DNA of 63,993 nucleotides, filler included, from Diploschistes diacapsis (Eukaryota): NCBI GenBank assembly GCA_023645945.1. It is 6 parts of 6 records of this genome, joined end to end, with 100 filler letters (N's around TTAATTAATTAA, not from the genome) between each part and the next. Parts side by side here need not be neighbours in the genome. Positions count along the whole stretch, not along the records: positions 10,848 to 21,578 come from JALAIB010000897.1; 5 more parts are not named here. The stretch is one strand, 5' to 3'. The translations under genes were made by a program, and so were the position numbers. A model generated the notes under the pieces. That model ran no database searches and was not told the origin of the DNA. It saw only the letters and a program-made list of their open reading frames with translations. Below, piece by piece: positions 10,748 to 63,993 of the stretch; within the stretch, counting starts at the first letter, position 1; the number at the start of each line of letters is the position of its first letter.

Positions 10748-10847
10748 NNNNNNNNNNNNNNNNNNNNNNNNNNNNNNNNNNNNNNNNNNNNTTAATTAAT
10801 TAANNNNNNNNNNNNNNNNNNNNNNNNNNNNNNNNNNNNNNNNNNNN
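10748..10847. other. Artificial contig linker (44N-TTAATTAATTAA-44N)
   Basis: Six-frame stop spacer, identical to the four other linkers. Confidence 0.97.
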
Positions 10848-11179
10848 CAGTTTCGCCAACTTCGCGGATTTTCGCGGTGTTTCGCCGCCAAAAACTTTTC
10901 GTGATGTAAATCGCTTCGTAATTATTAAAACGAGATTAAATTCCATCAAATCGATCTATAATAATCGATCGAGATACTTTAAATACGCGAATAATTTCTC
11001 GAATGTTAATATATTGTTATAATTTTAGGGCCTGTAAACAGTCGTTAATATTAAATTCTATTAAAATCGAATTATTGCGATGCGAGGTAGTCATTATTGA
11101 GAAAAATCGAATGTAAGATGAAAATAGTGATTTGAGGTGGCCGGAATCTGGGGGTGGCCGGAATCCCCGTCAAACACGT
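10848..11179 (+). mobile_element. Right end of a RIP-mutated Fot1/pogo DNA transposon
   Basis: 43-bp TIR at 11137-11179 (GTGGCCGGAATCTGGGGGTGGCCGGAATCCCCGTCAAACACGT) followed by TA. It carries an internal direct repeat and is the reverse complement of the TIR at 63434-63476. Confidence 0.85.
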
Positions 11180-11624
11180 TAAATATAATTAATTCGGGCA
11201 TAATACGCGAACTTATAAAATAGAATCTATAGCTTTTAAGGAAGATACTAATAATTAATATAATAAATTATCGTACGAATTGATTGCGCAAATATAATTA
11301 TAAATTATATAAATCGAGAAGAGTGTCCGTTCGCTATAAATGTCCGCTCGTTATACATATACGTTATAACGAATTCATTTTTGTTACTTATCCTATAAAT
11401 AAAGTCCTAATACCCAGCGAAGGTTTTCGGGCGGATAAATATAGATGCGCGAAAACAGGTTTACATAACGCTCGGAACCGTGAAACTTCAGGCCCCCTTT
11501 AGTACGAAACCTTGTCAAATAGAAAGAACTTGTAGGAATAAACAATATTATAAAACCTTCATATTAAAAAGTAAGATTAATAGAATGATACCGCTCCTTC
11601 CGCATAATACAAGCTAAAAATAAA

Positions 11625-12604
11625 TTATTTTAATACAAGAAACTTTTCTAATCCTGTTCCCTTATTAATCATACCGTCCTGATATATAAAAATCAGTTAC
11701 CGGCCTCTAGCAGAAGCATAAAAGAATACTATAAGACGAAATCTCAACTTACCAACATTCCTGCTAGTACATAGGTAAAAAGGATGTTAATTATACTCGC
11801 TAGCTTGCCGCGATAAACCTTTCCGCTAACCCCATCAGCGATATCGGTAATTAGCTTCTACGTAAACTCCTGCGGCGTTAACATGTCGAGTTCCTCGATG
11901 CCGGTAGCGCGGGCGACGATCTCCTTAGACGCTGACTTATAAAGCGAGTATTTTGGTAAATCTTGCTTCTACGAATTAGACATGAGATTAATCTTAATGG
12001 CACCAGTAATACACGTGATGACATATACATTAAAGGGCGCGAGCTCGAGTCGTATTATTTCGCTAATCATACTCACCGCCGCCTTAAAGCCCCCGTATAC
12101 GCCTGCGAAAGTCAACGACTAGCCACGATGATTTAGATATAGAAATAGAGGAAAAACGATTCATAACGTACTTATCTACGGAACGTGTAGCAGGCCTAAA
12201 ATAGACATAATATTACATACGGTGCTATAGGCAGCAATTAACAGCGGTACAAAGGCCTAGACCATGACCAGTACGTTCCACACATTGATTTCGTATATTT
12301 CACGCCCGAGTTATAGATCAAAGTTAAGTAACGAAGCCACGTACTGCGCGCCCGAGTTGTTGATAAGGACGTCGAAACGGCCGGCGGTTAATTTAATTAC
12401 CGCGTCGCGGGCGGAAATAATGGACTCGGGTTTAATAACGTCGAGAAGTACGTTAATAACGTACGAAAGATCGCGTAATGTACCGAGCTTATTTAAATTA
12501 CGTGCCGTAGCGATAATATAATAACCGCGTTTTTAAAACTCGACGCATAACGTAACGCCGATACCCCTTTCGCTCGAGCTCGTTATAAGGACGTATTTAA
12601 GTAT
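11625..12604 (-). pseudogene. RIP-inactivated short-chain dehydrogenase/reductase (Ayr1-like)
   Basis: Minus strand reads KYVLITSSSERGIG...ATARN...FDVLINNSGA...YGGFKAAV with TAA/TAG stops at former CAA/CAG/TGG codons. Two introns are still visible. Confidence 0.85.
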
Positions 12605-13699
12605 AATAGAATAGATTCTGCTAACGACTACGTTCTCTATTAAAAACGATCCTTTCGTTCAACGGGCGGACCTTTAATAGACCGGGAAGCGGAGACGAGA
12701 GAGGACGAGAACGTAACTTAGCTTAACTTAACTATTAAGAATTAATTATCGAGGACTAATTATCGAAAACTAGAAATTAAAATTATGAGAAATAAAGGAA
12801 ATGGACGGGACAAGAAGACAAAAAGACCATCCGTGCAACGTATGAGCAGTATCTTTTCGTTCGGGGTGATAATGTCTTAAAAGCGAAGTCAAAATAAGGA
12901 TATAACGCTACTTACGAAAAGTATTTTAGAAGGTTCCGGAAACTACCTAAAGCAAAATAACAGATTATGAACCTCGTGTTTTAAATGATATACCGCCGTG
13001 GAACCTCTTTATATTTATAAGAGAAGCAGGTTCCGAATAAGCCCTATTGAAGCCTAACGATTACGCTATTTCGGTTCTACTTATAACGCCTCTCCCACGC
13101 TCCGATACACGTTTTTTTCATATTATATAAAACTTATAATCACATTTATAATATATTTTAGCCCTAACATGCTATCCAGTCCGTCGTCTAGATATAATAG
13201 GGTTCGCGATGCAACCGTTGCGTCTACCTAGCCAGGAGCTAGCCTTACCCCTCGTTATCAGCTCTTACCCCTCACACCGTCTCTCTCTGCATGGGACGTC
13301 GGCGTGTTTCTTGCTCCTTACCCAAGCAGAGATAAGAATCGTTCCTGCCAGAACTAAGCACAATACGGAAACCAGAGATTAATCCAACATTTAAACTATA
13401 TGTATACGGGTATTGAACGGTAGCTCCAGGAAAACCCGCGCGCCTAAAAGGACTGACAGAAAAGGTTATTAATAATTTTATTCTCTATCTAATCTTTTTA
13501 ATAATTTATTCTTCGACGTTATATCTTTTCAACTTTATATACTCATCCTATTTTTTAGGTTATAAGACTTGAAGCTTATTTCTATTACTTATTATTAAAC
13601 CCTTATTTTCTCCTACCCTATTATACGCACGTAGGTCATCTTAATCATATTCAGATCGTTACGCTACGATTTTAATTCTAACGATATTTAATTTTTTAA

Positions 13700-15086
13700 T
13701 TATATCTATAGTTTCCTTTAAAAACGGATCGATAACGTTACTCAACGTTTAACTTACGAATACTACCGTGTAAAAAAAGTTAATATTACATAAAAATCGA
13801 TTAATAAATAAACGTAATTAACGAAAATCAAACTCCGCTACAACGATTAAAAATCTATATATTCTCGTTACAAGTTTACCGGCAACATCTATATTTACTC
13901 GACTACGACCGAGGACGGACGGTCCAGGAACCGGAAGCAATCGTTCAAAAAAACCAAAAGCGATAGAGAAACTTCAGAAAACTCGGGAAGCCCGGTCCCT
14001 AATAATTCTCCGTTACCCACCGCGGAGATGACCGCGCCGCCATCATCGCAACCCCCCCAAGTCTCTGCTCTTACTATCGATCTAATAATATTCTAGCATA
14101 CTTCTAGCCATACCCGGCCTGAAAATAATGGTAACAAGATACAGACACTCGAATACAAGTTCAGTACCGCTATAAACGACTTCTAGGCCACGTTCAGGAT
14201 TAAATTTAAAAGGCCCGATCCCCGTCTTTTCAGTTTCCTCGGCAATCTGCTACACCCTCCCGCTAAAGATCCTAACGAGATGCTCGATAAGATTATATGT
14301 AAATCCGACGCCGACTCCTTTACACTCTTCACGTCCATTAATAATATTATAGAACTTACCGAATAACCCTCGCATTTTAAGCCGAACTTCACGTTATCTA
14401 TTAATTAACACGCGAATTTAAACGATATAAACGAACTCGTTAATTATTTTACGCCGTTATCGCTCGTTAGCGCCGTCTTTAACGCTCCGGATCCACATTC
14501 CGCCGAATATACTACTACGTCGCTTAAACGGGCTACCGTCTCCGTTTCTTTAAACGTCACGCCGTACACCTGCGATTATCTACGGTCTAAGGTGGGTATA
14601 TTGAAGGAACTCCATGCGTCGCGCTGCGTAATAGATTCGGCGTTGAACGAGATTATAAATTATTATAAAAATTACATTACGCGCTATTACGTTATCGCTA
14701 CGTGCTCGACTTATATAACACGTATCGAATCGATATTACTGTTTATATTCGTTTATAACCGATTATTCGTTTTTTATAAAGTTATTATCGACGCGTCCTT
14801 ACGCCGGTCCGGCTTCCTTATAACCATGCGCGACCACGCGAACCACGCGAAGACTCTTCGCGCCGAAACTCGAATTATAATAGGTCGTTATTAGATCGAT
14901 AATAAAAAAAAATATAATAACACGATAATAACGTTAATTAAATATTAAATAAAAGCTTTAAACCGCCTGTTATTAAGTTTACATAAAATAACGGCGGTGT
15001 TAATACGCGGACAGTATTTATAAAGATTATAGGCCTACGAGCGACGAGTGGTGGCCTTAACGGAAAAAGTGATGGCGGGGAGGTAA
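13700..15086 (+). pseudogene. RIP-inactivated Zn(II)2Cys6 pathway regulator (5' end approximate)
   Basis: 13746-13895 reads RLTYEYYRVKK/intron/LRYND*KSIYSRYKFTGNIYIY, i.e. CxxCx6Cx6CxxCx6C with every Cys codon TGY changed to TAY. Confidence 0.8.
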
Positions 15087-15699
15087 GGCTAGTGGTGGCG
15101 GCGGCGGTAATAATGATGATCGTAATGGTAATAATTGGAATATACGGAAGATCTAGACGTCGAGAATTCTACTATCTTTTTTTCGATTCTTTTAAGAAGA
15201 CGTTTTATCTTATAAAGAAAAGGGCGGGTAATGACTAGTAAACGGCATTCGATTTAATAGAAACGCATTAAACAGCAAGTTTTGAAGCTAATAAGGCGTA
15301 CGATAAACTCCTTCACCGTAACGGCTTCCTCTGTATTTAGATACCGTGGTTTCTTTAAATAGCAAATAGTAGACGTACCAAAGTGGTTAGTCAGACGTAT
15401 CCTTTTTGCATAACAACAGGGTTAAGATGTTTATAAAACTAGTTCTATAATTATTATTATTAGATTCGGATTCCCCGAACGTACGATAAACGCTTTATAA
15501 AGTATTTATATTTCAATCGAGCGTTCTTAATCTATCTACCGTGTCTTAACCGTGCTGTAATCTATTACCATAAAGTTTACCACTATGGAAGTCGTGAAGG
15601 TACATTTTGGCCAACTTAGCCTATTCTAGGCTCTAACGACGGGAGTCGTTACTTTTATGAGTTTTTATCTCATCATGTGCGGTAGCTGCGAGAGATATG

Positions 15700-17715
15700 G
15701 CTGTTTATCTGTTGGATGGATATGATGGAAGTTAACTGACCTTTCGGTCCTTTAAATGATTCTTTGGTCCAGTATGACTATCCTTTATAATCTATTCTTT
15801 TATTCTCTTACCCATTTCCCGGGTCTTTTACTCGCTAGATGTAACTTAGTAGGCCTCAAATGCTTTTTAATTATGTTGCATTTTCTCCCTTATTAAGACT
15901 AGCTTGTAGCTGTGGCGTATTTATCACTTTATATCTGGTAAGTTTTATCTTGCTATCGACGATGCACACCGGATCTATAGTGGGTGATCTTTCTACCTTG
16001 AATTTTATAATGTTTATAATCAGCATTAGATCTATAACGGCCAGTCGCCCGTCTCCTACGCGTTTTTTTATTGTCAGACGTTTTTATTAGTAAACTGAAC
16101 ATACATCATAAGCGACGTGTTCCGCGTTTCTTTTAACGAGCTTTCTTTCGCGTTAATGACATTATAGAAAGCTATTTATGGCCATCAGACCGCTACCGAT
16201 AAGCCCATTTTAATCAAGTCCGAGTTTTATAAGATATACGGTGCCGGATTTCGGCGGTTCTACATCGAATCCGAACGAAATCCTACCATCCATAATGGTA
16301 TAAAGAAGCATTTATCGGCTACCTTCTCGAACCGCGCTCTGATCAAACAGGAAAATATTATGGCGGCCGTGTTCGATCGCTTCGTGAACCGGATGGGATA
16401 AGAGGAGCAACATAAGACCAAAAAGAAGGACGTAAATATTACTAAATAATTCGAAATGATGTCCTTTAATATCTTAAATAAAATGGCTTTCGGCGAGAAC
16501 TTCGGCTATATCGAGAATAACGAGTGACTCCGCTGGCCCATGTACTCGTGATAAGTCTTACTTACAAGTGCTATAAAAAAACCTTATTTCTAAGCCGAGT
16601 TAATCCTGAAATATCTTTACTTTATTATTCTCGCGGATAATCTACGCCGGTTCCCCTTAATTAAACGCCTTGCGCGGACCTTCTTCCTATCGACCTTAAC
16701 GATTTAGAATAAGAACTCACAATATAATCAAACGCAAATCGAAAAGTAAGCCTTCTCTACGCGAAACTACGGCCTAGGAATATTATAAATAAACAGCATA
16801 TTAACGGACACATAAACGTTTAAATTTTAAATCCTCGCGCAAAAATTTCTTAATTATTCTTATCGACAAGATTAGGCGAGAAAAGGTGGACAAAAAAGAA
16901 GTAACGGCCTATATCTCGATCTTCGTATGAACAACTTTTTTTAAAAAGGTATAATCCATTCGTATACTTATCGATCGATATAAGATCGCCGACGAAAAAA
17001 TTATATCCACGTTTTTTAAAACCACGATTTATTATTTAATAAAAAATCCGACCGTCTATAACAAGCTTATAGGCGAAATACGGGATCGTTGGACCCGGTA
17101 TACAGAAATTAATGCCACGTCCGCCCAGTCGCTCCCTTATTTACAAACCGTCATCAACGAGGGTCTGCGAATCTATCCACCTAATTCTTAAAGGTTTCCT
17201 AAAATCTCTCCCGGGACGTTCGTTGACGATTATTAGATTTTTACTGATATATATCACGTCTAATTCCAGGCGAATGGTTTTAAATTAAATTAACGCGGAA
17301 CTTTACAGGCCGAAATATACACGAGTACATAAACCATCATTTATAATAACCGCAATTTTCACGATCCGTACGTCTTTAAACCGGAACGATGAACGGATCC
17401 TCTATACACAAATATCAAAGAAGCGAGTCAGCCCTTTTCGCTCGGGCCACGTGGTTACTTAAATCGTAAGTAAGTATAATACAATACACGTACCGCTCTA
17501 ATATAAGATCGCAATCCAAGATTAAGCGATAGATTGACACGTATACGTTTCTTAACAGCTTCGCGTATATAAAAATGAACTTCATTCTAACTAAACTGCT
17601 CTAACGCTACGGCCTACAAGCCGTAAACCAGCAAGACTTGGACTAGACCGGCGAAAGTCGGATACATATAATGTAATAAAAACCATCGCAACACGTTCGT
17701 TTCTTAACGCGATGA
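15700..17715 (+). pseudogene. RIP-inactivated cytochrome P450 (5' end approximate)
   Basis: YNLFFYSLTHFPG (from HPL..FPGP), FRVSFNELSF, ExxR motif NEGLRIYPP, KPER* and heme motif PFSLGPRGY (Cys to Tyr) near 17432-17460. Several introns. Confidence 0.9.
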
Positions 17716-18663
17716 GCTTAGGGAGACGGCTGAGATACTACGACGGAACACGAAGTTACTACAGGATTCGCCAGCTAATTCGATATACGGATCCTACGCA
17801 TATAAATCAAAATCGATAGGCCTATTATAAAGGGCTTTTTGTAACTTTTGATGACCCTTGAGCCATAAACTTGTAAATTGTAATATTAACAAGAATCTGC
17901 GGATTAAGCTAATCGTAGTAACGTGTACTTATACAAGTAGCGACGGCCACGGATAAAACACGTCCTATCGTTGTAACCCTCGCAACCTTACCCGAAAATG
18001 ATAGAAGTTCGGATCTCTTATAAGATTCGTACCATCATATCCTACCCACGGGTTTAGACCGTTGACGGGTCGGGACCGTACAACTTTCCTTCTAGGACCT
18101 AAGATAACTCGAGGTTCGGAATTTATCGTTTTAAGATACGTATTTTCCTATACGTGGTTCTAGCTCGTCTAGGCATAGAAACGGCGGTTATATATAACTC
18201 TATTAATCAAACCCGTGGGACGGCTAGCTTTCGCACGCCTATCCCTATAAAAAACTTTTTCCAAACATCATTTCGATCGTTTACTCCGTCGCTGGTTAAT
18301 CTCCTTCGGCCGAATCCAGTTAGATGTCCCTTAAACGTAATCTCGATAAAAGTGGTCTCGATAAAGGGCAATACGGCCCGACTTCACCCCCGACCTAATT
18401 ACTAAAATTACCCGATCGGGAGCTCAGCATGAGTTACCCTACTGAATATAAACCTGACTGCACCAGCTACGGCTTCGTCAAATACTGCGTCTTACTTACC
18501 CCGACAGAAATATATCCCATCATCTTGGTGAAGTAATATCTGTTATTTATGGCTCCTTTATCCTACCCATGCACCTACCCCGTGACAGTGCTTCGAGCAT
18601 TTCAGGAACATATCTCAATATCTAACTCAGTGCGATCATCCAATAAGCCATTCAATATCAGCA

Positions 18664-21578
18664 ATGAATGGCATTACTGACGATAACTCTACGGTCAATG
18701 GCACAGAGAACCCGGATAACATACACTATAGCTTCAATGGCAGCACGAATGGAACAAACAAGGCATACTATGGCGTAAGCGCGAACGGCGTCAACAGCGT
18801 CAACGGTATCAATGGCATTAACGGCACCGACGGATATCATAACATCGATACCAACGACTCCGTCAACGGGACCAATACCCATACGCGATCCTCGCAACCT
18901 ATTACCATCATCGACCTAAACTATAAGTTCTCAAACGATGCCTCGTCGCCTTAGAAATTTTAGAATTTATTAGCTGAGACCAAAAACGCGTAATCGCCCT
19001 TTCCGAAGGACCGCTTTAACGGAAAAACATTCTACCATCTATAAGGCGGAAGGTAGAACACCGTAAATTTCTTTCGGCGTATAAGCCCGCCGTTATGTTA
19101 AACCAGAATTTAACGAAATTAATATGATATTAAATTAATACTACTAGCGCATATTTTATTAAAAAAGACCTCGGTTTCTTCGACTTAGGCTTTTTTAACA
19201 TGCCCACGGAAGTTATAAATATAAATTACTTAAACAAACACGTTTTACTACTTAGCTCCCAGTTTACTCACGTAGCCGTCCGCAGAACTTAGATCTTCAA
19301 TACCGTCTTCTCTTCGAATCTATATACGAAGCTCTTGAAAATAATTAGTCAGACTTTCCTTCTGGGCCCTCCTGCTTGCCTTCAACCTCCGCGCCCTTCT
19401 AGTTCCCCGCGTCCTTCCCCTTTTCCTTCCTTTGCCTGAACCGACTGATTCTCGTCTTTCCATTCCACAGCGAGTATCCTTCTCTCCCGTGTCGCTGGCT
19501 CCGATACTGCAATTTACGTCAGCAGTTTCTTCCGCGATTTCCTCGATAGTTACTTTCGCGATCCTACGACGATGCCCCGATACGTGCTAACGGGTAACGA
19601 TTTTAACATGTTTTCGAACCGGTTTTCGCATATCTTCGACCTACACGGCTTCTCTTTTACGGTCAATATGGGCTGTTTCTCGGAACTAATAGTTCTATAT
19701 CTAGCGTGTTAGAGCTTACGCGCGGACGAAGCCAGTATAACACTCGTTAATAACGTTAACGTATATTTAAACCCGAATATTTTTATTTTATTCGATAATC
19801 TTAAATATGTTTTTAATTAAAATCTTATTTTTTTCTAAATCTTCTAATCCTATTCGCCTTTACGTTATATATTAATAACTTCGCTTTATCTTCCAATAAT
19901 ATATTCAACGTTAAAGATAAATGCTTCGCCTTTAATTACCGCGCCAACGATTACGGGCGTAGGAAGAACGTAGCCGTTTTAGTGCTTAAACCGCTCGATA
20001 CGACGTTGCGCGACGGCGATCCCGTTCGCGTCGTCATCCGCGACACGGCTCTGAACTAGAATAACCATATCCCGACCATTACAAGTCCTAATAACGAAAC
20101 GTAGGCGGCATTTATACGGCAATACTACGCGGCGGTAGGGATAATGCCGGAAAAGATCGGCTATATGGAAGGTAAGTTTCCGAATATCGATCCTTTAAGC
20201 TTTTAACCGACGACCATAAAGCCCATAATACAAACACATAGGCGGAAGATATGGTCGAAGTAATTTCAATAACTTCGGTTTACGCGAAAGACCGATCTTT
20301 ATCCAATCCATTATTAATTAATTCCGTCAAGTCCAATATTAGCCATCTTAAACCGACTAATGGCTTTATATCGATCATCAAAATCATCCTCGCCTTCGAG
20401 TAAGGTATAATTTTTTCAAATATTAATTTCGAATCTCCGAACGAGAAACTAAATCTCAACGATATATATCTACGGGTAAGATTTTTAATAAATTTTAATA
20501 AATATAAAACTAATATAAGATTTAAATACTTACGGAATATACGGTATAACCGAGTCGGAAACGTAAACTTACATCGGTTAATAACTTTGGCTATGGAAGT
20601 ATTAACGCTTATATAATCTTAAAAAAACCCGAACGGTAGGGCCGAATACAGGCAGTAATGAGCAACGGAACGTACCACACGCGCACTCGCCGACGGGTCT
20701 TTCTCGTAAGCGGCAAAAACGAGGCATCGGCCGAAACCAATCAAAAGAAATTCTGTAAATACCTAGGTAGTATCAAGCCTAATAACGAAGAAACATTCCT
20801 AGATAATCTCGCTTACATGTTCTCGGATCATCGTTCGATCCTTGATTAGACAACTTCGGTATTTACGGATAGTATTACTAGATTAGCCTCGTCGCTAGCC
20901 GATAAAGAAGTCGAGCCGTTGCCCCAGCTGAACGCCGCCCCGCGGATAGGCTTCATCTTCACCGGTCAAGAAACACAGTGGTACGGCATGGGCCGCGAAT
21001 TAATCGAAGCCTATCCAGTCTACAAATAATCCCTATAAGAAGCAGATTCATACTTAAAGGAATTTGATGCTTCCTACAGTTTCATAGATTCGTTATGTTC
21101 ACTAAACGCAGATACACTGTCGAGATTGACATCATTAAAGAAAAATTCTTTAAAAATGAAAATAAATCCCGAGTCAACGACCTTATCTTGAGTTTTCCGT
21201 TTTGCGTCGCCGTTCAAATTGCACTCGTAAGATTTTTAAAATTATAATCCATCTAATCAACGGTAATAACGAGTTATTCGAGCGGCAAGATCGCTGCAAC
21301 GTACGTTGCAAAATCAATCTCCCTTAAAAACGCCATATATATTATATATATCAGAAGCGTCTATCTATCGACCTTACGACAAAAGAATATTTTAAAAAGT
21401 AATATGATTGCCGTGGACCTCGACGTGGCATCTATCCAATCGTACATCCATAAAGTCGCATTAAACGATCTAATTATTACGTACGTCAATAGTCCGTCAA
21501 GCGTCACGATCTCGGGTAATATAGATACAATCACGGTTTTTAAAAAACGGTTTTCTAAAGCTAAAATCTTTACTCGAA
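18664..21578 (+). pseudogene. RIP-inactivated iterative type I PKS (HR-type KS-AT region), truncated at the contig end
   Basis: NG-rich N-terminus, QPITIIDL..KF..DASSP, KS active-site region VNMGCFS...LYLAC*SLR, AT motifs [28 protein letters not shown] (from GHSSGEIAA) and YVNSPSSVTISG. Many RIP-type stops. Confidence 0.9.
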
Positions 21579-21678: not shown

Positions 21679-22317
21679 GGAAAATATTATAATAATCGCT
21701 TTTATAAAAGTAGACGGGCGCGTTGTATAATATTCCTTCGACGAATACTATATAAATAAACGAACAGCCACCGCCGAAATATATTATCGACTTTTACGCG
21801 ATATTATACCCTAAATTTATAAACCTGGACAAGCTTTTTTACAAGATAATACCTTTATATATATAATTAATAATATTAAAACACTTTTAAAAGAATTAGG
21901 CGTTTAAACGTTCGATTATTTCTTCTATAGCCCGGATCTGAACCTTATCGAGCATCTATAGCCTACGCTTAAAGAAAAAGTTTTAAAGCTTTATCCAAAG
22001 CTTAAAACTATACGCGGGGGTAAGGAGAAGAAGATAAAAACTTTAAAAATAACAATTCGAAACGTTTTTGAAGTACTTCTAAAGGATAGGGAATAGGATT
22101 TACCTACTAAATTAATGCATTCTATGCCGAAGCGAATAAAGGCTTATATCGACGCGCAAGGATGGCAAATTAAATATTAATATAATTTATTATTTAAGAG
22201 CTTTAAAATGATTTACTTTGCGCATTCATTGAAGCTTTATTAAGTGCGCAATGGCTCAATAAAGTTGGTAGGTGGTATTTGTTTATTTGATACCTAACTA
22301 CTTTTGGCACGTGACTG
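21679..22317 (+). mobile_element. 3' part of a RIP-mutated Tc1/impala-like (DD34E) transposon
   Basis: FLQDN...YSPDLNLIEHL* with 34 residues between D and E. The terminus ...CTTTTGGCACGTGACTG is followed by TA (CAGT-type TIR). Confidence 0.85.
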
Positions 22318-22619
22318 TAGGTAGGCAGGTACTATTCTAGCTTTTTACCTACATAGTCACGTGTCGACATTCCGGGCTTATAGGGTTAAAGCAGGGGTGT
22401 CGGAAATTTTCTGGTAAGAAGCGGACACTCTCTACAGTTTCTTTAAACGCCGTCCCTTGGCAGTATAATAGCAGGATCCTCTTCCACGCTTCGAGACCGT
22501 CCTCATTGCCGCCAATGTGTCCAGAATGTACGTCGCCGCTCTCAATCAAGCTATTCGAGATCTGCGTAATACTTAACAATTGTCCAGAATACACCGTCCA
22601 AGGTCAAGGTGGCTACGAC

Positions 22620-23305
22620 ATGGGTGTTGTACAGCGTATGAGAGATTTGAATACTGTGAGACATACTACACCAAACTTTGCCAAAAACTGGAGACTTACC
22701 ACGTTAATGTACAGAAAGTCAGTATTCGAAGATACCTTGATTTCACAGCTTCCTAACAGCAGGTCAACCAGCTGTTAAATCTCCGTCTCGGACCAGGGGC
22801 TGTCATTCTTCCTAAGGATGTAAAAAAACTTCACATGCAATTCGCATTGAAGAGCCATGATGGTCACCTTGGTTCTCGAAAATTCTGGCGAACCTATTTG
22901 CCACGACTGAAATTCCACAATCCAGCTATACCAATGACACTAGAACGCACCACGGATCAGAGCGGCCCCGCAACAATGACGATATTCTTTTCACCCGATC
23001 CGGAATCATCTACAAAAAGGCTAGAACGAGGAAGTGCAACGGGCTCACTAGTAAATGACAAACTGAAGACTATTGATATGAAGCATAGGGATGAGACTGA
23101 GATCTTGGCGGAGTTTCTCAAAATAACAAACGGGGAGGAGGTGATTGCTAGCGAAGAGGACAAGTTGAAGCTCCAGGAGTCAGAACAACAGAGTGCACAG
23201 ACGGAGCAAGACAAGACACGCTCGAGGCTTGACCTCGAAGCGAAGCGAAGTGAAAAGCGGTTGCTGGAACAGGCAAGACATGCAGTTGGTGGACTACGGA
23301 TGTAG
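22620..23305 (+). CDS. MRP49: Mitochondrial large-subunit ribosomal protein Mrp49 (mL61)
   Basis: Exon 22620-22655, intron to ~22762 or 22771, then LLNLRLGPGAVILPKDV...RKFWRTYLPRLKFHNPAIPM. Confidence 0.85.
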
Positions 23306-41940: not shown

Positions 41941-42180
41941 GGTTGCATCGCTCTAGAGTCTTTGGGTACCTAGAGCTGCGAATTCAGCGTACATCCCAGC
42001 GAATGCCATTCGCTACCACCCTTAACAGGTTTACCATTGTCAATGTAGAGCGCGCTGCCCTCGTTTCGCTGCGTAACTCAGCGCGCACGGTATGAACAGT
42101 ACCATCCACCTTGTCACGCATACTTGTATACTACAATCCGGGATTAGTTCTCCCCTTCCGCTCCCGGCGCCACCTTTCAC

Positions 42181-43216
42181 CTAGAGTCTGCTCCTCTTGC
42201 CCATCTCCACCCATTCGTTTGCCGCCCTCAAGCATTCAACCGCCTCCGTCACCATGCCCTCCACGATCTCCCGCGCCGGCTTGATCTCGCCCACAACTGC
42301 GCTCACCTGGCCCATCAGGAACGGCATGTCCACCTCCCTCCCTTCCTCCATGTCCCTCTCCATGGGCACCAAGCCCTTCTCGCACAGCTCCTTCACCTCG
42401 TCCTCCCTCTTCTCCCACCCGGCAATGTACTCGTTCCTTCTCGCCCTCAGCGGCCGCCCGCTGACGACCAGCGTCCGCACCGTGTCCCCCCAGCCGGCCG
42501 TGACCACGGCCTCCTTGTGCATGCGGCTGCAGCCGGCCTCGTCGCTGGCGACGAAGCGGGTGCCGACCCAGACGCCGGCGGCGCCCATGCTCAGCATGCC
42601 GGCCAGGCCGCGGCCGTCGTAGATGCCGCCGGCGGCGACGACGAGGCCGCAGCTGCCGGGGCCGAGCCGGTCGCGCACCAGGCGCGGGCGGTAGGCGCGC
42701 GCGACGTCGACGACGGCGGGCACCAGGATGGCGGTGGGGATCTGGCCCGTGTGGCCGCCGCCCTCGGCGCCCTGCGCGCACACCACGTCGGCGCCGGCCT
42801 CGAACGCGCGGCGCGCGTGCGCCGGCGCGCCCACCATGTTCACCACCACCACGCCCGCCGCGTGCAGCCGCCGCACCGCCCACGCCGGCGGCACCCCGAT
42901 CGCGCTCACGAACACGCTCGCCCCCTCCGCCACGATCACCTCGATCAGCGCCCCCAGCTGGCCCCCCGTGTAGTCGTGGTTCGTCTTGCGCGCCGTCCCG
43001 CCCACCGCCGGCAGCGCCAGGTCCACCCCGAACGGCACCGGCGCCGGAAGGAGCGACTTCAGCTCGCGCATCATCGACCGCAGCTGCGCCGGCGTGTAGC
43101 CCAGCCCGCCGATCGTGCCGAGCCCGCCGGCGCGCGAGACCGCCGCGGCGAGGGGCGCGGTCGAGCAGTGCGCCTGTGGCTCGGTGAGCTGGGGTTACGA
43201 TTGGGGGGTGTGTGTG
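42181..43216 (-). CDS. Nitronate monooxygenase (2-nitropropane dioxygenase family), 5' truncated
   Basis: PFGVDLALP, AQGAEGGGHTG, VAAGGIYDGRGLA, GAAGVWVGTRF. The 5' end runs into the linker. Confidence 0.92.
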
Positions 43217-43316
43217 NNNNNNNNNNNNNNNNNNNNNNNNNNNNNNNNNNNNNNNNNNNNTTAATTAATTAANNNNNNNNNNNNNNNNNNNNNNNNNNNN
43301 NNNNNNNNNNNNNNNN
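43217..43316. other. Artificial contig linker
   Basis: 44N-TTAATTAATTAA-44N. Confidence 0.97.
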
Positions 43317-51911: not shown

Positions 51912-52494
51912 AGAAGGGGAAGATGGCGCGGATGGATGTGGGGTGTGAAGGAGGGGGTTTTAACGCAGGACTGGATGGTTATGAGATATGCTGAACGGCC
52001 GACCAAAATTTTCATACTGTTGATGCGCGATATTCGGAAGGACTGCACTCCTTGATTTGTAGCTCGTCGAGTGAAATAGTGTGAACTAGAAGACATCCGA
52101 AAATTTTTGAGTGATGATTGAAACGGATGGGGATTTCGAATATTATTATGTTTAGGCTATGGCGGGTTGGCCGTTAAATATATCCGTAGTATTAAACGAC
52201 AATCAATATGGAGGAGCCTGGTCTTACATAATTGGAAATATCCTCCTCAACTGGCTACTGGACCTCTGATACACATCTAAGAGTTCTCCATGCGATCAAT
52301 GTTTGTTGAAGAATTACTTATAGTAATACCTTGATACCTTTTACGTGCCCTTCAAACTCAAGTTAAAATTTGCGGATCTTTGTCAGGCTTTCCAGCGACC
52401 GTCGTTGAAGGAAATCACTTATTACCCCTTTCCCCCCGAAATTACCCAATTTGTTAACCTTCCACCACAGCCGTTCCTTCAGCTGAGAAGAACA

Positions 52495-53439
52495 ATGGCC
52501 GATCCAGCAGACCTCTCCCAACATCCTAGCGCACAGTCCTACCAGAAACCACCCCAAAGCCCCAAACGAACCCTCCTCCTCTACCAACAAGACCCCACCC
52601 TCCGCACGCACACCACCCACATCCAATCAATTCAGCCGTTCACTACCCTTGCCTCAGACCATCAAACCCTTTTCAAAACCGGCACACCAAGCCATCACGT
52701 CGTCATCACCGCCTCCACCATCTTCTGCGCCCAAGGCGGGGGCCAGCCCAGCGACACGGGACTCATGCACGGCACCTCCTCTTCCCCCCGGTGTTCCTTC
52801 TCCGTAGAATCCACTCGATACGGATCTCACGGGCAGATCTTCCACTTCGGACACTTCCTCCCCCCGCCCTCCTCCTCCTCCTCCACCGCCACCACCGCCA
52901 ACAACAGCGCCCCCATGTTCACGGTCGGCGAGGAAGTCTCGCAAACCATCGACAGCCCCAAGCGCGATCTCCACGCGCGCATTCACACAGCGGGACACAT
53001 CCTTGGGCTCGCCGTGCGGCATCTGCGGCAGATGGGCACTATCCCCGACGACGTGCGGGAGCGGAAGGCGATGCACTACCCCGACTCCGCGTTTGTGGAG
53101 TTCAACGGTCTGATAGACGGGCGGCACAAGGAAGCCATCCAAGCGAAGGCGGACGAGCTGGTGGCTGCGCAGATCCCGGTCCTTGTGCACTTCTGGAGCG
53201 AGGCGGAGATGGAGGAGAGGTGTGCGATGCCCTTTGATCCGGCGCTGAAGGCGCAGGCGGGGGAAGGGGATGGTGATGGGCGCGGGAGCTTGTTGAGGGC
53301 GGTGGAGGTGCAGGGCGTTGGGGCGTATCCGTGCGGGGGCACGCCGACGGTGGATACAGGGAGCTGTGGGCTTGTGGTTAGAAGGGTTTCGAGGCAGAAG
53401 GGGGTCAGCAGGGTTTCTTATCAGGTTGTGGAGGTGTGA
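52495..53439 (+). CDS. AlaX-family free-standing tRNA editing protein (ThrRS/AlaRS editing domain)
   Basis: QGGGQPSDTG, HTAGH and YPCGGT motifs. ATG at 52495. Confidence 0.88.
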   Translation: MADPADLSQHPSAQSYQKPPQSPKRTLLLYQQDPTLRTHTTHIQSIQPFTTLASDHQTLFKTGTPSHHVVITASTIFCAQGGGQPSDTGLMHGTSSSPRCSFSVESTRYGSHGQIFHFGHFLPPPSSSSSTATTANNSAPMFTVGEEVSQTIDSPKRDLHARIHTAGHILGLAVRHLRQMGTIPDDVRERKAMHYPDSAFVEFNGLIDGRHKEAIQAKADELVAAQIPVLVHFWSEAEMEERCAMPFDPALKAQAGEGDGDGRGSLLRAVEVQGVGAYPCGGTPTVDTGSCGLVVRRVSRQKGVSRVSYQVVEV

Positions 53440-53496
53440 TGAAGTGTGAGGATGATTGGGAAAGGGGGGGGAAGTTGGATTTTTTTGTTGTTCTAG

Positions 53497-54124: not shown

Positions 54125-54325
54125 ATAATATAATATCCGTGTTAATATTAATATTTTAAATTTTTTAATTACGATATCCGTGTCCGTGAATTTATAGAAA
54201 TATAGTATCCGTATTAATATCCGTGTTTTAAATTTTTAATTATAATGTCCGTGTTAGTATCCGCGTTTTAAAATTTTTTGTTGTAATATCCGTGTCAGTG
54301 ACCGTGGCACGAAATGGCCAGCCTA
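54125..54325. mobile_element. End of a RIP-mutated hAT-like element
   Basis: At least seven RTATCCGTGT subterminal repeats ending in GGCCAGCCTA (reverse complement TAGGCTGGCC). A similar end, TAGGCTGGCC...ACTGACACG, lies at 63030-63051. Confidence 0.6.
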
Positions 54326-62204: not shown

Positions 62205-62764
62205 TCTTTGCGGCAAGATGACTGTAGTAGAGGCACGAGTGAAGTCAAGTTAGCTGACGCATGGTTTGCTCTGTGGATACAGGAAATCTAACTTCGTAGA
62301 CAAGGTTAATCATCAGCGGATGACCGATTTGCAAAGGCTTTGTGCTTTAGATGTACTTGCTGGCTGTGGCTAATGTAAGTAGCCAGATAGGTGTCTAGAT
62401 GCGATGGTCTACGAGGCTTGGTGACCACCCAAAGCTTGGTCATGTCTGCTGCAAAAGTTAGTAAATGGGTATGGTTTAGCCCGGCCGTGTTGCGACTAGT
62501 AAACGAGCGGCCTCTAATAACCGAACAGCCATAAACACTTTTTATACTTAAAATGCCTTTCCTTTCCTTATAGATTATGAGCTGCGTTATGATTTTCCGC
62601 TGAACCAAACCTAAATACATTCATTAACAAAAAATGCTTTCATCCACGGGATAACCGGATCTTTCATGAAATCGCTCGCTGCAACGACGTCTCTCTTTCC
62701 TCCTTTCACGATAAGCTTGCTGGCCGCCCTAAAAAAACTTCTAATCAGGAATCTTAACGTATTC

Positions 62765-62901
62765 CACAAGTCATCCGCCCACTTTGTACCTCTCATACAA
62801 AAATACATGTGATGGTACTTAATTGTCGCTCTCCACGTGATTATCACGTACCGTCACATGTATTTTTGTATGAGAGGTACAAAGTGGGCGGATGACTTGT
62901 G
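62765..62901. repeat. 54-bp inverted repeat with a 29-nt spacer, probably two back-to-back transposon TIRs
   Basis: 62765-62818 is the reverse complement of 62848-62901 with one mismatch. Similarity extends to 62752/62931 across a 17-bp tandem duplication. Confidence 0.9.
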
Positions 62902-63433
62902 TGGGCGGATGACTTGTTGAATGCGTTAAGAGTTTTAAATTATTAAGCAAAGGGATATTCTAATAAAACATGTAAAACCGTTTATAAATCGAAAACTAAT
63001 TTTTTCTTGCAATATTCAAAAGTTTAGCGTAGGCTGGCCGTTACTGACACGAATACAGCGGTGTTTATTGTTGAAAGTGGTGGAAGTTCCTAATAAACAA
63101 ATGACTAAGCGTGTATTCTGTAGCTAATCCTAACTAGAAAATAATCCCTAGCCTGTCTAGCCTGGTAGCTGACTATTGTTCAGTAATAATATACTGAAGA
63201 GGTTAAAGGTTATATCTATAAAAATTGGAGGGTGATGTTACGATCCAGGTATCTGACCTGTCCCATCCCAGCCACTCACTTAAGAACCTCGCATGGGCGC
63301 TAATCACGTGAATAATTAAAAAAAGCGGCGCCGCTCCATATAACTTCTTAAAAGCAATAAACAGCGCTCTTTTTATTTTATAAAAATTATCGTTACCGTT
63401 TCTTTCGTTCTTTAAGAATTAAAGAAATAGATA

Positions 63434-63993
63434 ACGTGTTTGACGGGGATTCTGGCCACCCCCAGATTCCGGCCACTTTTGCCAAGAAATAGTTTAAATC
63501 TCAATAATTCTTCGAAATTAATCGTAATTTTATTTTATTTTCAAAATATTACTTTTTAGTCAATTATCTATCATATGTAAAAAGTGCACATTGATAACGT
63601 CATCAGTTAACATTTTTAAGCGAATTAAGAATGAAGATTCGAAAAAACGGATTTGTGAATCTTTTAAAATCTGCTTTAACCAAGCAAAAGATATTTTATT
63701 TAACTGATCTATTATGAGAGTTATTATGCGTAGGTTTCATTAAAACTATAAGAACAACAATTTTTCCACGTTATACAGTCGTTGTGTGGCTTTATTCTTC
63801 AAAATCCGAAAGATTTTAAATAATTTGGCCATAGAACGGCTAGTTTTCGCTTAATCTAAATTTTCTAAAATGACGGAAAAATGATGAACAAGGTCACACA
63901 ACAACAGTATAACGTCAAAACAATGGTTTTTTAATATTTTAATGAAATCTAAGCATAGAACCACTTATACTAGTTTATTTAAATAAAATTATT
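63434..63993 (+). mobile_element. Left end of a degenerate Fot1/pogo transposon
   Basis: TA plus the 43-bp TIR ACGTGTTTGACGGGGATTCTGGCCACCCCCAGATTCCGGCCAC, followed by stop-riddled transposase-like sequence (GFILQNPKDFK*FGHR). Confidence 0.8.

What the first reader, a model, noticed from the sequence alone, without database searches (positions are those of the whole stretch)
11625..21578. A polyketide gene cluster executed by RIP and still reconstructable
Seen: SDR, Zn2Cys6 regulator, P450 and PKS lie in order with introns intact, but the DNA is depleted of CA/TG, rich in TA and retains CG. Stops sit at former Gln/Trp codons, and damage is mostly transitions. Known: RIP acts on duplicated DNA in the sexual cycle and leaks only a limited distance into flanks. 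Inference: 10 kb of heavy RIP over normally single-copy genes implies that the cluster was duplicated, or was cargo of a large mobile element such as a Starship. Reversing the transitions could resurrect a lost pathway.
Basis: partly seen in the sequence, partly recalled or inferred. Interest (0 to 1): 0.72.

Follow-up and report, generated by a model that had tools for sequence, protein, structure and literature searches.

The report
Fungal polyketide cluster destroyed by RIP
A lichen fungus carries a complete five-gene polyketide pathway that its own anti-transposon defence (RIP) has riddled with C-to-T mutations from end to end, most likely because the pathway was briefly present twice; the process is known, and this is an unusually clean example.

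Summary
The window is six unplaced contigs joined by 100-nt linkers, and the RIP block is exactly one contig (10848-21578) of a fragmented 29-Mb genome from a lichen metagenome. The cluster continues on three more RIP-mutated contigs. Together they give about 18 kb of single-copy DNA: SDR, Zn2Cys6-like regulator, P450, a complete HR-PKS (KS-AT-DH-CMeT-ER-KR-ACP) and an MFS transporter. Of 305 changed conserved residues, 193 fit only C>T/G>A and 15 only the reverse; CpG is largely spared and no frameshift was seen. No second copy was found in the assembly or in the sequencing run's contigs. RIP is as strong as in true repeats and shows no gradient, whereas at a transposon border in this window it fades within about 250 bp. 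Best reading: direct RIP of a transient duplicate whose partner was then lost. Starship cargo is possible (captain-type genes on 8 other contigs) but unlinked. 'Still reconstructable' is overstated: with one copy and distant homologues, 25-33% of codons stay open, and some splice sites are broken. Known process, new instance.

The parts
10748..10847 (.). Assembly linker (N-run with TTAATTAATTAA): left end of contig G000:C4248, not a biological boundary
10903..11182 (-). End of a high-copy RIP-mutated DNA transposon with a terminal inverted repeat; pogo/Fot1-like by recalled motifs, no Pfam hit. Repetitive DNA continues to about 11430
   Evidence: 39 matches at 86-91% identity in the genome, 39 of 640 candidates scored; summed depth about 2,000-25,000 in run X1; 352 transitions vs 85 transversions among 15 fetched copies plus one window copy; Pfam negative
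11700..12604 (-). SDR pseudogene (AYR1-like short-chain reductase), one intron at about 12114-12170, 8 stops inside the match, start codon reads ATA
   Evidence: Pfam adh_short E 1.7e-19; 54-55% identical to intact P0009; 22 of 27 changed invariant residues RIP-only
13740..15100 (+). Putative Zn2Cys6 regulator pseudogene; all six Cys positions read Tyr, first intron acceptor lost; limits approximate
   Evidence: spacing by eye and weak pattern test; no Pfam, NCBIfam or homologue hit
15585..17707 (+). Cytochrome P450 pseudogene, multi-exon, many stops, some splice sites lost
   Evidence: Pfam p450 E 2e-5 and 9e-15; 28-38% identical to an intact P450 on C4174
18400..18950 (.). Patch that largely escaped RIP: PKS upstream region and Asn/Gly-rich N-terminus
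   Evidence: 72 CA+TG dinucleotides vs 36.7 expected at the tract rate, P 1.6e-7 for a patch chosen after inspection
18664..21578 (+). 5' third (KS, linker, AT) of a highly reducing PKS pseudogene. It continues on G000:C1105 (AT end-DH-CMeT), C2289 (ER, KR start) and C1051 reversed (KR end-ACP, then a convergent MFS transporter pseudogene)
   Evidence: collinear tblastn to squalestatin tetraketide synthase residues 31-797 | 797-1810 | 1888-2320 | 2321-2593; 9-nt end overlaps C4248/C1105 and C1105/C2289; Pfam domains; MFS by tblastn E 9e-12 to an intact transporter on C358
21579..21678 (.). Assembly linker: right end of contig C4248; the true continuation is C1105, not window 21679 onward

Best explanation
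This is a once-functional five-gene HR-PKS cluster (SDR, Zn2Cys6-type regulator, P450, KS-AT-DH-CMeT-ER-KR-ACP synthase, MFS exporter) in a lichen-derived ascomycete. The whole region, intergenic DNA included, was present twice in one haploid nucleus entering the sexual cycle. RIP converted roughly a quarter of its C:G pairs to T:A on both strands, mostly outside CpG, and killed every gene. The partner copy was then lost by meiotic segregation (unlinked copy) or by recombination (tandem copy). Shown: gene content, RIP-type spectrum, extent, flat profile, no second copy detected. Inferred: the duplication, its cause, loss of the partner, and a recent date (no frameshifts). Inferred product of the intact pathway: a methylated, highly reduced polyketide, oxidised by the P450, reduced or released by the SDR and exported by the MFS; compound unassigned.
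For: Spectrum: 193 RIP-only vs 15 reverse-only of 305 changed invariant residues, controls 14 vs 7 of 70. The same genome's transposon copies show CpA 0.43, CpT 0.38, CpC 0.26, CpG 0.11 mutated. Load: coding GC 0.363 vs 0.486 in the nearest intact paralogue and a mean of 0.496 in 28 other DH loci. Extent: 18,066 bp single-copy, 32 of 34 500-bp windows RIP-positive vs 7 of 98 in control contigs; CA+TG o/e by thirds 0.53, 0.58, 0.46, like the transposon-bearing loci (0.39-0.89, n=15); no trend with distance from the left transposon (rho -0.21, p 0.22) or the nearer end (rho 0.19, p 0.28). Three intergenic stretches are hit at the tract rate. Internal control: at the Tc1/mariner-like end at 21679-22319 the index falls from 0.5-0.8 to background by 22429-22679. 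Only 1 of 59 fetched PKS DH/KS loci of this genome is RIP-positive, and it is this gene's continuation. Frames run unbroken for 1003, 328 and 276 codons. Precedent: crosses of a two-copy Starship strain gave RIP-mutated progeny, and one cross changed 8.3-8.8% of a 4.3-kb fragment (passages). Leakage in L. maculans shows a gradient near repeats (passages of PMC2973834).
Against: No second copy was found: DNA searches of the genome returned only the contig itself. Protein searches returned only distant paralogues (SDR C785 49% to P0009; PKS C4174 27% and C365 31-38%). In run X1 one 7,914-bp contig covers 13703-21578 with no other letters. The duplication is therefore inferred, not seen. A high-copy transposon lies about 500 bp from the SDR and the right flank beyond the MFS is unknown, so the cluster may sit inside a repeat-rich block. 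Tens of kb of single-copy RIP-like DNA per chromosome have been attributed to leakage in C. fulvum (passages of PMC9453070). RID was not looked for.
Confidence: 0.68

Rival explanations
1. Sub-case of the best explanation: the duplicating agent was a Starship. The cluster was cargo, two insertions met in one nucleus after a cross, both were RIP-mutated, and this strain inherited one derelict.
For: The genome has 14 DUF3435 matches on 8 contigs; the three on C3847 have no stops and C1427 (2.3 kb) is wholly RIP-mutated at a similar intensity (o/e 0.42). The mechanism was shown experimentally in Paecilomyces. Lichen fungi have Starships with RIP-mutated nested transposons (passages of PMC13486527). 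A nested transposon flanks the cluster.
Against: No DUF3435 match on any of the 4 cluster contigs, and no end overlap of 7 nt or more between them and the fetched stretches of the 8 DUF3435 contigs, of which only 2 were fetched whole. No boundary or empty site can be seen in this fragmented assembly.
Confidence: 0.25
2. Cumulative RIP leakage: the cluster was always single-copy, became surrounded by repeats, lost selective value and was eroded by leakage over many sexual cycles.
For: No second copy. Transposon at the left edge. The least-mutated patch (18400-18950) lies inside the tract. Leakage into single-copy genes is documented.
Against: No gradient over 18 kb, intensity equal to true repeats, and leakage at a transposon border in this window is under about 0.5 kb. 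No repeat was detected inside the tract: depth in X1 is flat at 40-56 from 11564 to 21578 apart from one dip. Slow erosion should leave indels, and none was seen in the long exons.
Confidence: 0.13
3. A second RIP-mutated copy still exists in this genome but was dropped from the assembly or bin because it is AT-rich and fragmented.
For: The assembly has 4,361 contigs and breaks at AT-rich spots inside this gene. Contigs drop rare variants, 32 variant rows were not displayed, and only C4248 was laid against the run.
Against: At 80% likeness no second long contig of run X1 lay on the genes; depth is flat and all 37 displayed X1 variant sites lie in the transposon end. RIP-mutated transposon copies of this genome remain 86-91% alike and are found easily.
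Confidence: 0.1
4. Not RIP: ordinary decay, methylation-driven CpG deamination, or an AT-rich contaminant contig.
For: The genome is metagenome-derived, and no RID gene was searched for.
Against: CpG is enriched, not depleted; the change is directional; the flanking transposon family also occurs on long contigs of the same assembly and at window 63427-63476.
Confidence: 0.03

Closest known systems
RIP of a duplicated Starship (Hephaestus/Pegasus) in Paecilomyces variotii (bioRxiv 10.1101/2022.08.04.502770; passages seen)
   Same: Multi-gene cargo inactivated along its length by C>T/G>A changes at a load near 10%; progeny of a two-copy strain carry mutated copies.
   Different: There the duplication was made and observed. 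Here no captain, boundary or second copy is seen, and the genes form a biosynthetic cluster.
X3X3R8 RIP-degraded duplicated gene cluster of Stagonospora nodorum (PMC3017866; passages seen)
   Same: A cluster of ordinary fungal genes turned into pseudogenes by RIP after duplication.
   Different: Nine copies survive there and allow deRIP. Here one copy was found, and the genes are a secondary-metabolite pathway.
RIP leakage into AvrLm6/LmCys1 of Leptosphaeria maculans (PMC2973834, PMC3105345; passages seen)
   Same: Single-copy genes with RIP-made stops next to RIP-mutated transposons.
   Different: Leakage there is graded with distance from repeats. Here about 18 kb is hit uniformly.
Large RIP-affected regions and the Tangerine Starship in Xanthoria (PMC13486527; passages seen)
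   Same: Lichen fungi have RIP-affected regions over 4 kb and possibly degraded Starships.
   Different: Those regions are described as repeat-rich. This one is gene-dense, non-repetitive DNA.
Squalestatin tetraketide synthase (Phoma sp.; P0192/P0193)
   Same: Same domain order over the whole length; best named homologue (31-47% per segment against the damaged sequence).
   Different: Too distant to be called the orthologue. The neighbours here are SDR, regulator, P450 and MFS, not the second PKS, citrate synthase and acyltransferase recalled for the squalestatin cluster.

Membership tests
RIP-mutated DNA | Directional C>T / G>A changes | tested here: met
   193 vs 15 of 305 changed invariant residues; controls 14 vs 7 of 70
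RIP-mutated DNA | CpA/TpG depletion, TpA excess, CpG spared | tested here: met
   o/e CA 0.59, TG 0.51, TA 1.19, CG 1.88; transposon contexts CpA>CpT>CpC>CpG
RIP-mutated DNA | Large RIP-affected region (over 4 kb of RIP-positive windows) | tested here: met
   32 of 34 500-bp windows over 18,066 bp; size definition from PMC13486527; the RIPper program itself was not run
RIP-mutated DNA | A duplicate (about 400 bp or more, about 80% identity or more; thresholds recalled) in the same nucleus | tested here: inconclusive
   none found now; past presence cannot be tested
RIP-mutated DNA | RID methyltransferase and a sexual cycle | not tested
   not searched; RIP-mutated transposons show past activity
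Starship cargo | DUF3435 captain at the element's 5' end | tested here: inconclusive
   14 matches on 8 other contigs, none on the 4 cluster contigs; no link found
Starship cargo | Element boundaries, direct repeats and an empty site in a relative | not testable with these tools
   fragmented assembly, no relatives held
Highly reducing PKS | KS-AT-DH-(CMeT)-ER-KR-ACP in one gene | tested here: met
   Pfam hits for each domain and collinearity over four contigs; the C2289/C1051 join rests on collinearity alone
Zn2Cys6 transcription factor | C-X2-C-X6-C-X5-12-C-X2-C-X6-8-C cluster | tested here: inconclusive
   no HMM hit; six Tyr codons in that spacing across an intron
Squalestatin cluster | Second PKS, citrate synthase and acyltransferase beside the tetraketide synthase (recalled) | tested here: not met
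   neighbours within the 18 kb are SDR, regulator, P450 and MFS; DNA beyond the tract is unknown

The most novel reading that the evidence does not exclude
A mobile (Starship-borne) polyketide cluster was destroyed whole in one or two sexual cycles when two insertions met, leaving a single derelict. RIP of mobile clusters would then be a fast, heritable way for lichen fungi to lose a metabolite and so create chemotypes. The intact relative hinted at in another lichen run (a 34-kb contig matching the P450) would name the lost compound class.
Probability: 0.2. Interest if true: 0.62.

Novelty: new member of a known kind. Interest (0 to 1): 0.38.

Why it matters
It is a clean natural case of the cost of RIP: an entire secondary-metabolite pathway, not a transposon, erased by genome defence. 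Such clusters are invisible to gene callers, and in short-read assemblies they fall apart into small AT-rich contigs (four here), so this route of metabolite loss is probably under-counted. It gives a testable route to chemical variation among lichen individuals. It does not reveal a new mechanism, and the fossil alone cannot yield the compound.

Tried and rejected
Second copy: five DNA searches of the own genome gave only self hits. A whole-contig search was swamped by the transposon end. A sensitive blastn of the four contigs against the other loci fetched by then gave at most 55-70% identity over short stretches. An insertion inside the KS at 19296-19730, suspected at first, was rejected: 19467-19805 is KS coding sequence and about 19348-19471 is an intron. 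Stop-containing PKS loci C3744, C3901 and C3767 were checked as possible RIP partners; their DH/KS loci are not RIP-positive. An intact orthologous cluster was not obtained: the metagenome scan with P0009 returned 16 loci at 36-46%, none with a tblastx match to the regulator, P450 or MFS, and the regulator found 0 homologues among 895 candidates. No atlas result is available for the regulator, so its family rests on the spacing alone. Housekeeping proteins gave no taxon names, so the organism is placed only as an ascomycete from a lichen metagenome. No RNA holder listed. The MFS had no Pfam, NCBIfam or PDB hit and was identified only by tblastn. No paper describing a whole biosynthetic cluster killed by RIP turned up in four searches; of their 32 listed rows, 6 papers were read as passages (one more, PMC9453070), the library lacks most subscription papers, and no supplements were opened. 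Earlier scan findings were not available.
Full report
Setting. The window is not continuous DNA. Five 100-nt linkers split it into six contigs of about 10-10.7 kb. The only listed run that holds the stretch is a lichen metagenome and may be the source sample. With 29 PKS dehydratase matches on 27 contigs, the genome looks like that of a lichen-forming or lichen-dwelling ascomycete; no finer taxon was obtained.

The signal is real. C4248 has GC 0.392, CpA and TpG at 0.59 and 0.51 of expectation, CpG at 1.88 and a composite RIP index of +0.51; the other five contigs are negative. With stops read as X, Pfam confirms an SDR, a P450 and the KS and AT domains of a PKS. The regulator has no HMM or database hit, but six Tyr codons lie in Zn2Cys6 spacing across an intron, as expected if each Cys codon took a G>A change. 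The formal pattern test is weak, so this identity is inferred. At columns invariant among intact homologues, 193 of 305 changed residues can arise only by C>T/G>A and 15 only by the reverse; two intact paralogues give 14 and 7 of 70. Copies of the transposon at the contig's left end differ by 352 transitions and 85 transversions, with CpA most and CpG least affected (sites mutated in all copies are not counted). RIP has therefore acted in this genome, with the context seen in the cluster.

The cluster is larger than the window shows. Of 59 fetched PKS DH and KS loci, one was RIP-positive. That contig, C1105, begins with the last 9 bases of C4248. A search with the C-terminal part of the best intact homologue found C2289 and C1051. 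The four contigs align collinearly to squalestatin tetraketide synthase residues 31-797, 797-1810, 1888-2320 and 2321-2593. Among 15 contigs or stretches compared, the only end overlaps of 7 nt or more were C4248/C1105 and C1105/C2289; the last join rests on collinearity alone. All domains of a highly reducing PKS are present, and a convergent MFS transporter pseudogene follows (E 9e-12 to an intact transporter). The single-copy tract is at least 18,066 bp with five genes; its right end is open. Coding GC is 0.363 against 0.486 in the nearest intact paralogue, so about a quarter of G+C pairs are gone (inference). C1105 has 47 stops but no frameshift in 1,003 codons, which suggests a recent event.

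No second copy was found. DNA searches of the genome hit only the query contigs (C1105 and C2289 were not used as DNA queries). The closest paralogues are 49% (SDR, to the intact query) and 27-38% (PKS), by established thresholds too distant to trigger RIP. In run X1, contigs of 2,051 and 7,914 bp cover the genes with no other letters at depth 40-54, while the transposon end is at thousands; the 37 displayed X1 variant sites all lie in the transposon, and 32 rows were not shown.

Duplication or leakage. Leakage was reported at 930 bp or more in Neurospora and is graded with distance in L. maculans (passages of PMC2973834), although tens of kb per chromosome are attributed to it in C. fulvum (passages of PMC9453070). 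Here 32 of 34 windows are RIP-positive against 7 of 98 in control contigs, the intensity matches the transposon loci, and there is no trend with distance. Three intergenic stretches are hit at the tract rate. The window has its own control: the RIP-mutated Tc1/mariner-like end at 21679-22319 (DDE_3, E 1e-3, below the Pfam cut-off) gives way to background within about 250 bp. I therefore favour direct RIP on a transient duplicate of the whole region, followed by loss of the partner. In Paecilomyces, crossing a two-copy Starship strain gave RIP-mutated progeny, and one cross changed 8.3-8.8% of bases in another element (passages of bioRxiv 10.1101/2022.08.04.502770), close to the load seen here. 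Against this reading, the duplicate is not observed, a transposon lies about 500 bp from the SDR, and the right flank is unknown.

Starship. DUF3435 matched 14 times on 8 contigs, including one apparently stop-free set (C3847) and one fully RIP-mutated fragment (C1427), but none lies on or overlaps the cluster contigs. RIP-affected regions and possibly degraded Starships are described in lichen fungi (passages of PMC13486527 and PMC3897900). The idea is plausible and untested; a tandem or segmental duplication, or a doubled accessory chromosome, would look the same.

Reconstructability. Gene order, frames and domains are readable, so the pathway class is clear. The ancestral sequence is not. 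DeRIP chooses among bases kept by other copies (passage of PMC3017866), and there is one copy. Allowing any T or A to be a former C or G, homologues leave 333 of 1,003, 90 of 328 and 75 of 302 codons unresolved. This count ignores context and so may overstate ambiguity, but the 'resolved' codons are only plausible. Several splice sites and the SDR start are also lost (by eye). The practical route to the product is an intact relative: run X2 holds a 34,125-bp contig that matches 74 nt of the P450, with its three listed differences in the unmutated direction. It could not be fetched.

Verdict. A real and well-supported RIP fossil of a complete HR-PKS cluster. RIP of duplicated gene clusters and of Starship cargo is already described. 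Four literature searches found no report of a whole biosynthetic cluster in this state, but the library is partial, papers were seen only as listings or passages, and no supplements were opened. New member of a known kind; interest 0.38.

Noticed in passing
window 17105-17178 vs run X2, record 11: A 34,125-bp contig at depth 58 in another lichen sample matches the P450 (14 differences in 74 nt; the three listed are T>C, A>G, A>G) and its loose ends continue the P450 frame: a lead to an intact relative of the gene, perhaps of the cluster.
   Followed up: partly
window 18400-18950: The PKS upstream region and Asn/Gly-rich N-terminus escaped RIP (72 CA+TG vs 37 expected); a weaker escape lies at 15570-16050. 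It may mark DNA that differed between the two copies; unexplained.
   Followed up: partly
window 21679-22319: RIP-mutated 3' end of a Tc1/mariner-like transposase with a terminal repeat, next to an intact gene with an L51_S25_CI-B8 domain (22757-23305); used as the leakage control.
   Followed up: yes
window 11137-11186 and 63427-63476; 62752-62931: The transposon terminal repeat at the cluster's left end recurs inverted at the end of the last contig, where a 59-nt-arm inverted repeat (MITE-like) also lies.
   Followed up: partly
G000:C4174 (L045, L168): The nearest intact paralogous HR-PKS (27%) has a related P450 (28-38%) on the same contig: possibly an ancient sister cluster.
   Followed up: partly
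G000:C1427 (L160) and C3847 (L157): A wholly RIP-mutated DUF3435 fragment and an apparently stop-free DUF3435 gene: candidates for a derelict and an intact Starship captain.
   Followed up: partly
G000:C3744 (L103, L104): Another PKS with many stops (9 in KS, 3 in DH) but no RIP signature: a pseudogene that decayed by a different route.
   Followed up: partly
window 42148-43272 and 52327-53496: GC-rich stretches (up to 69%) with long ORFs on both strands, in contigs that otherwise run near 50% GC.
   Followed up: no
window 54125-54300: Short degenerate repeats of 39-61 nt at the start of the last contig.
   Followed up: no
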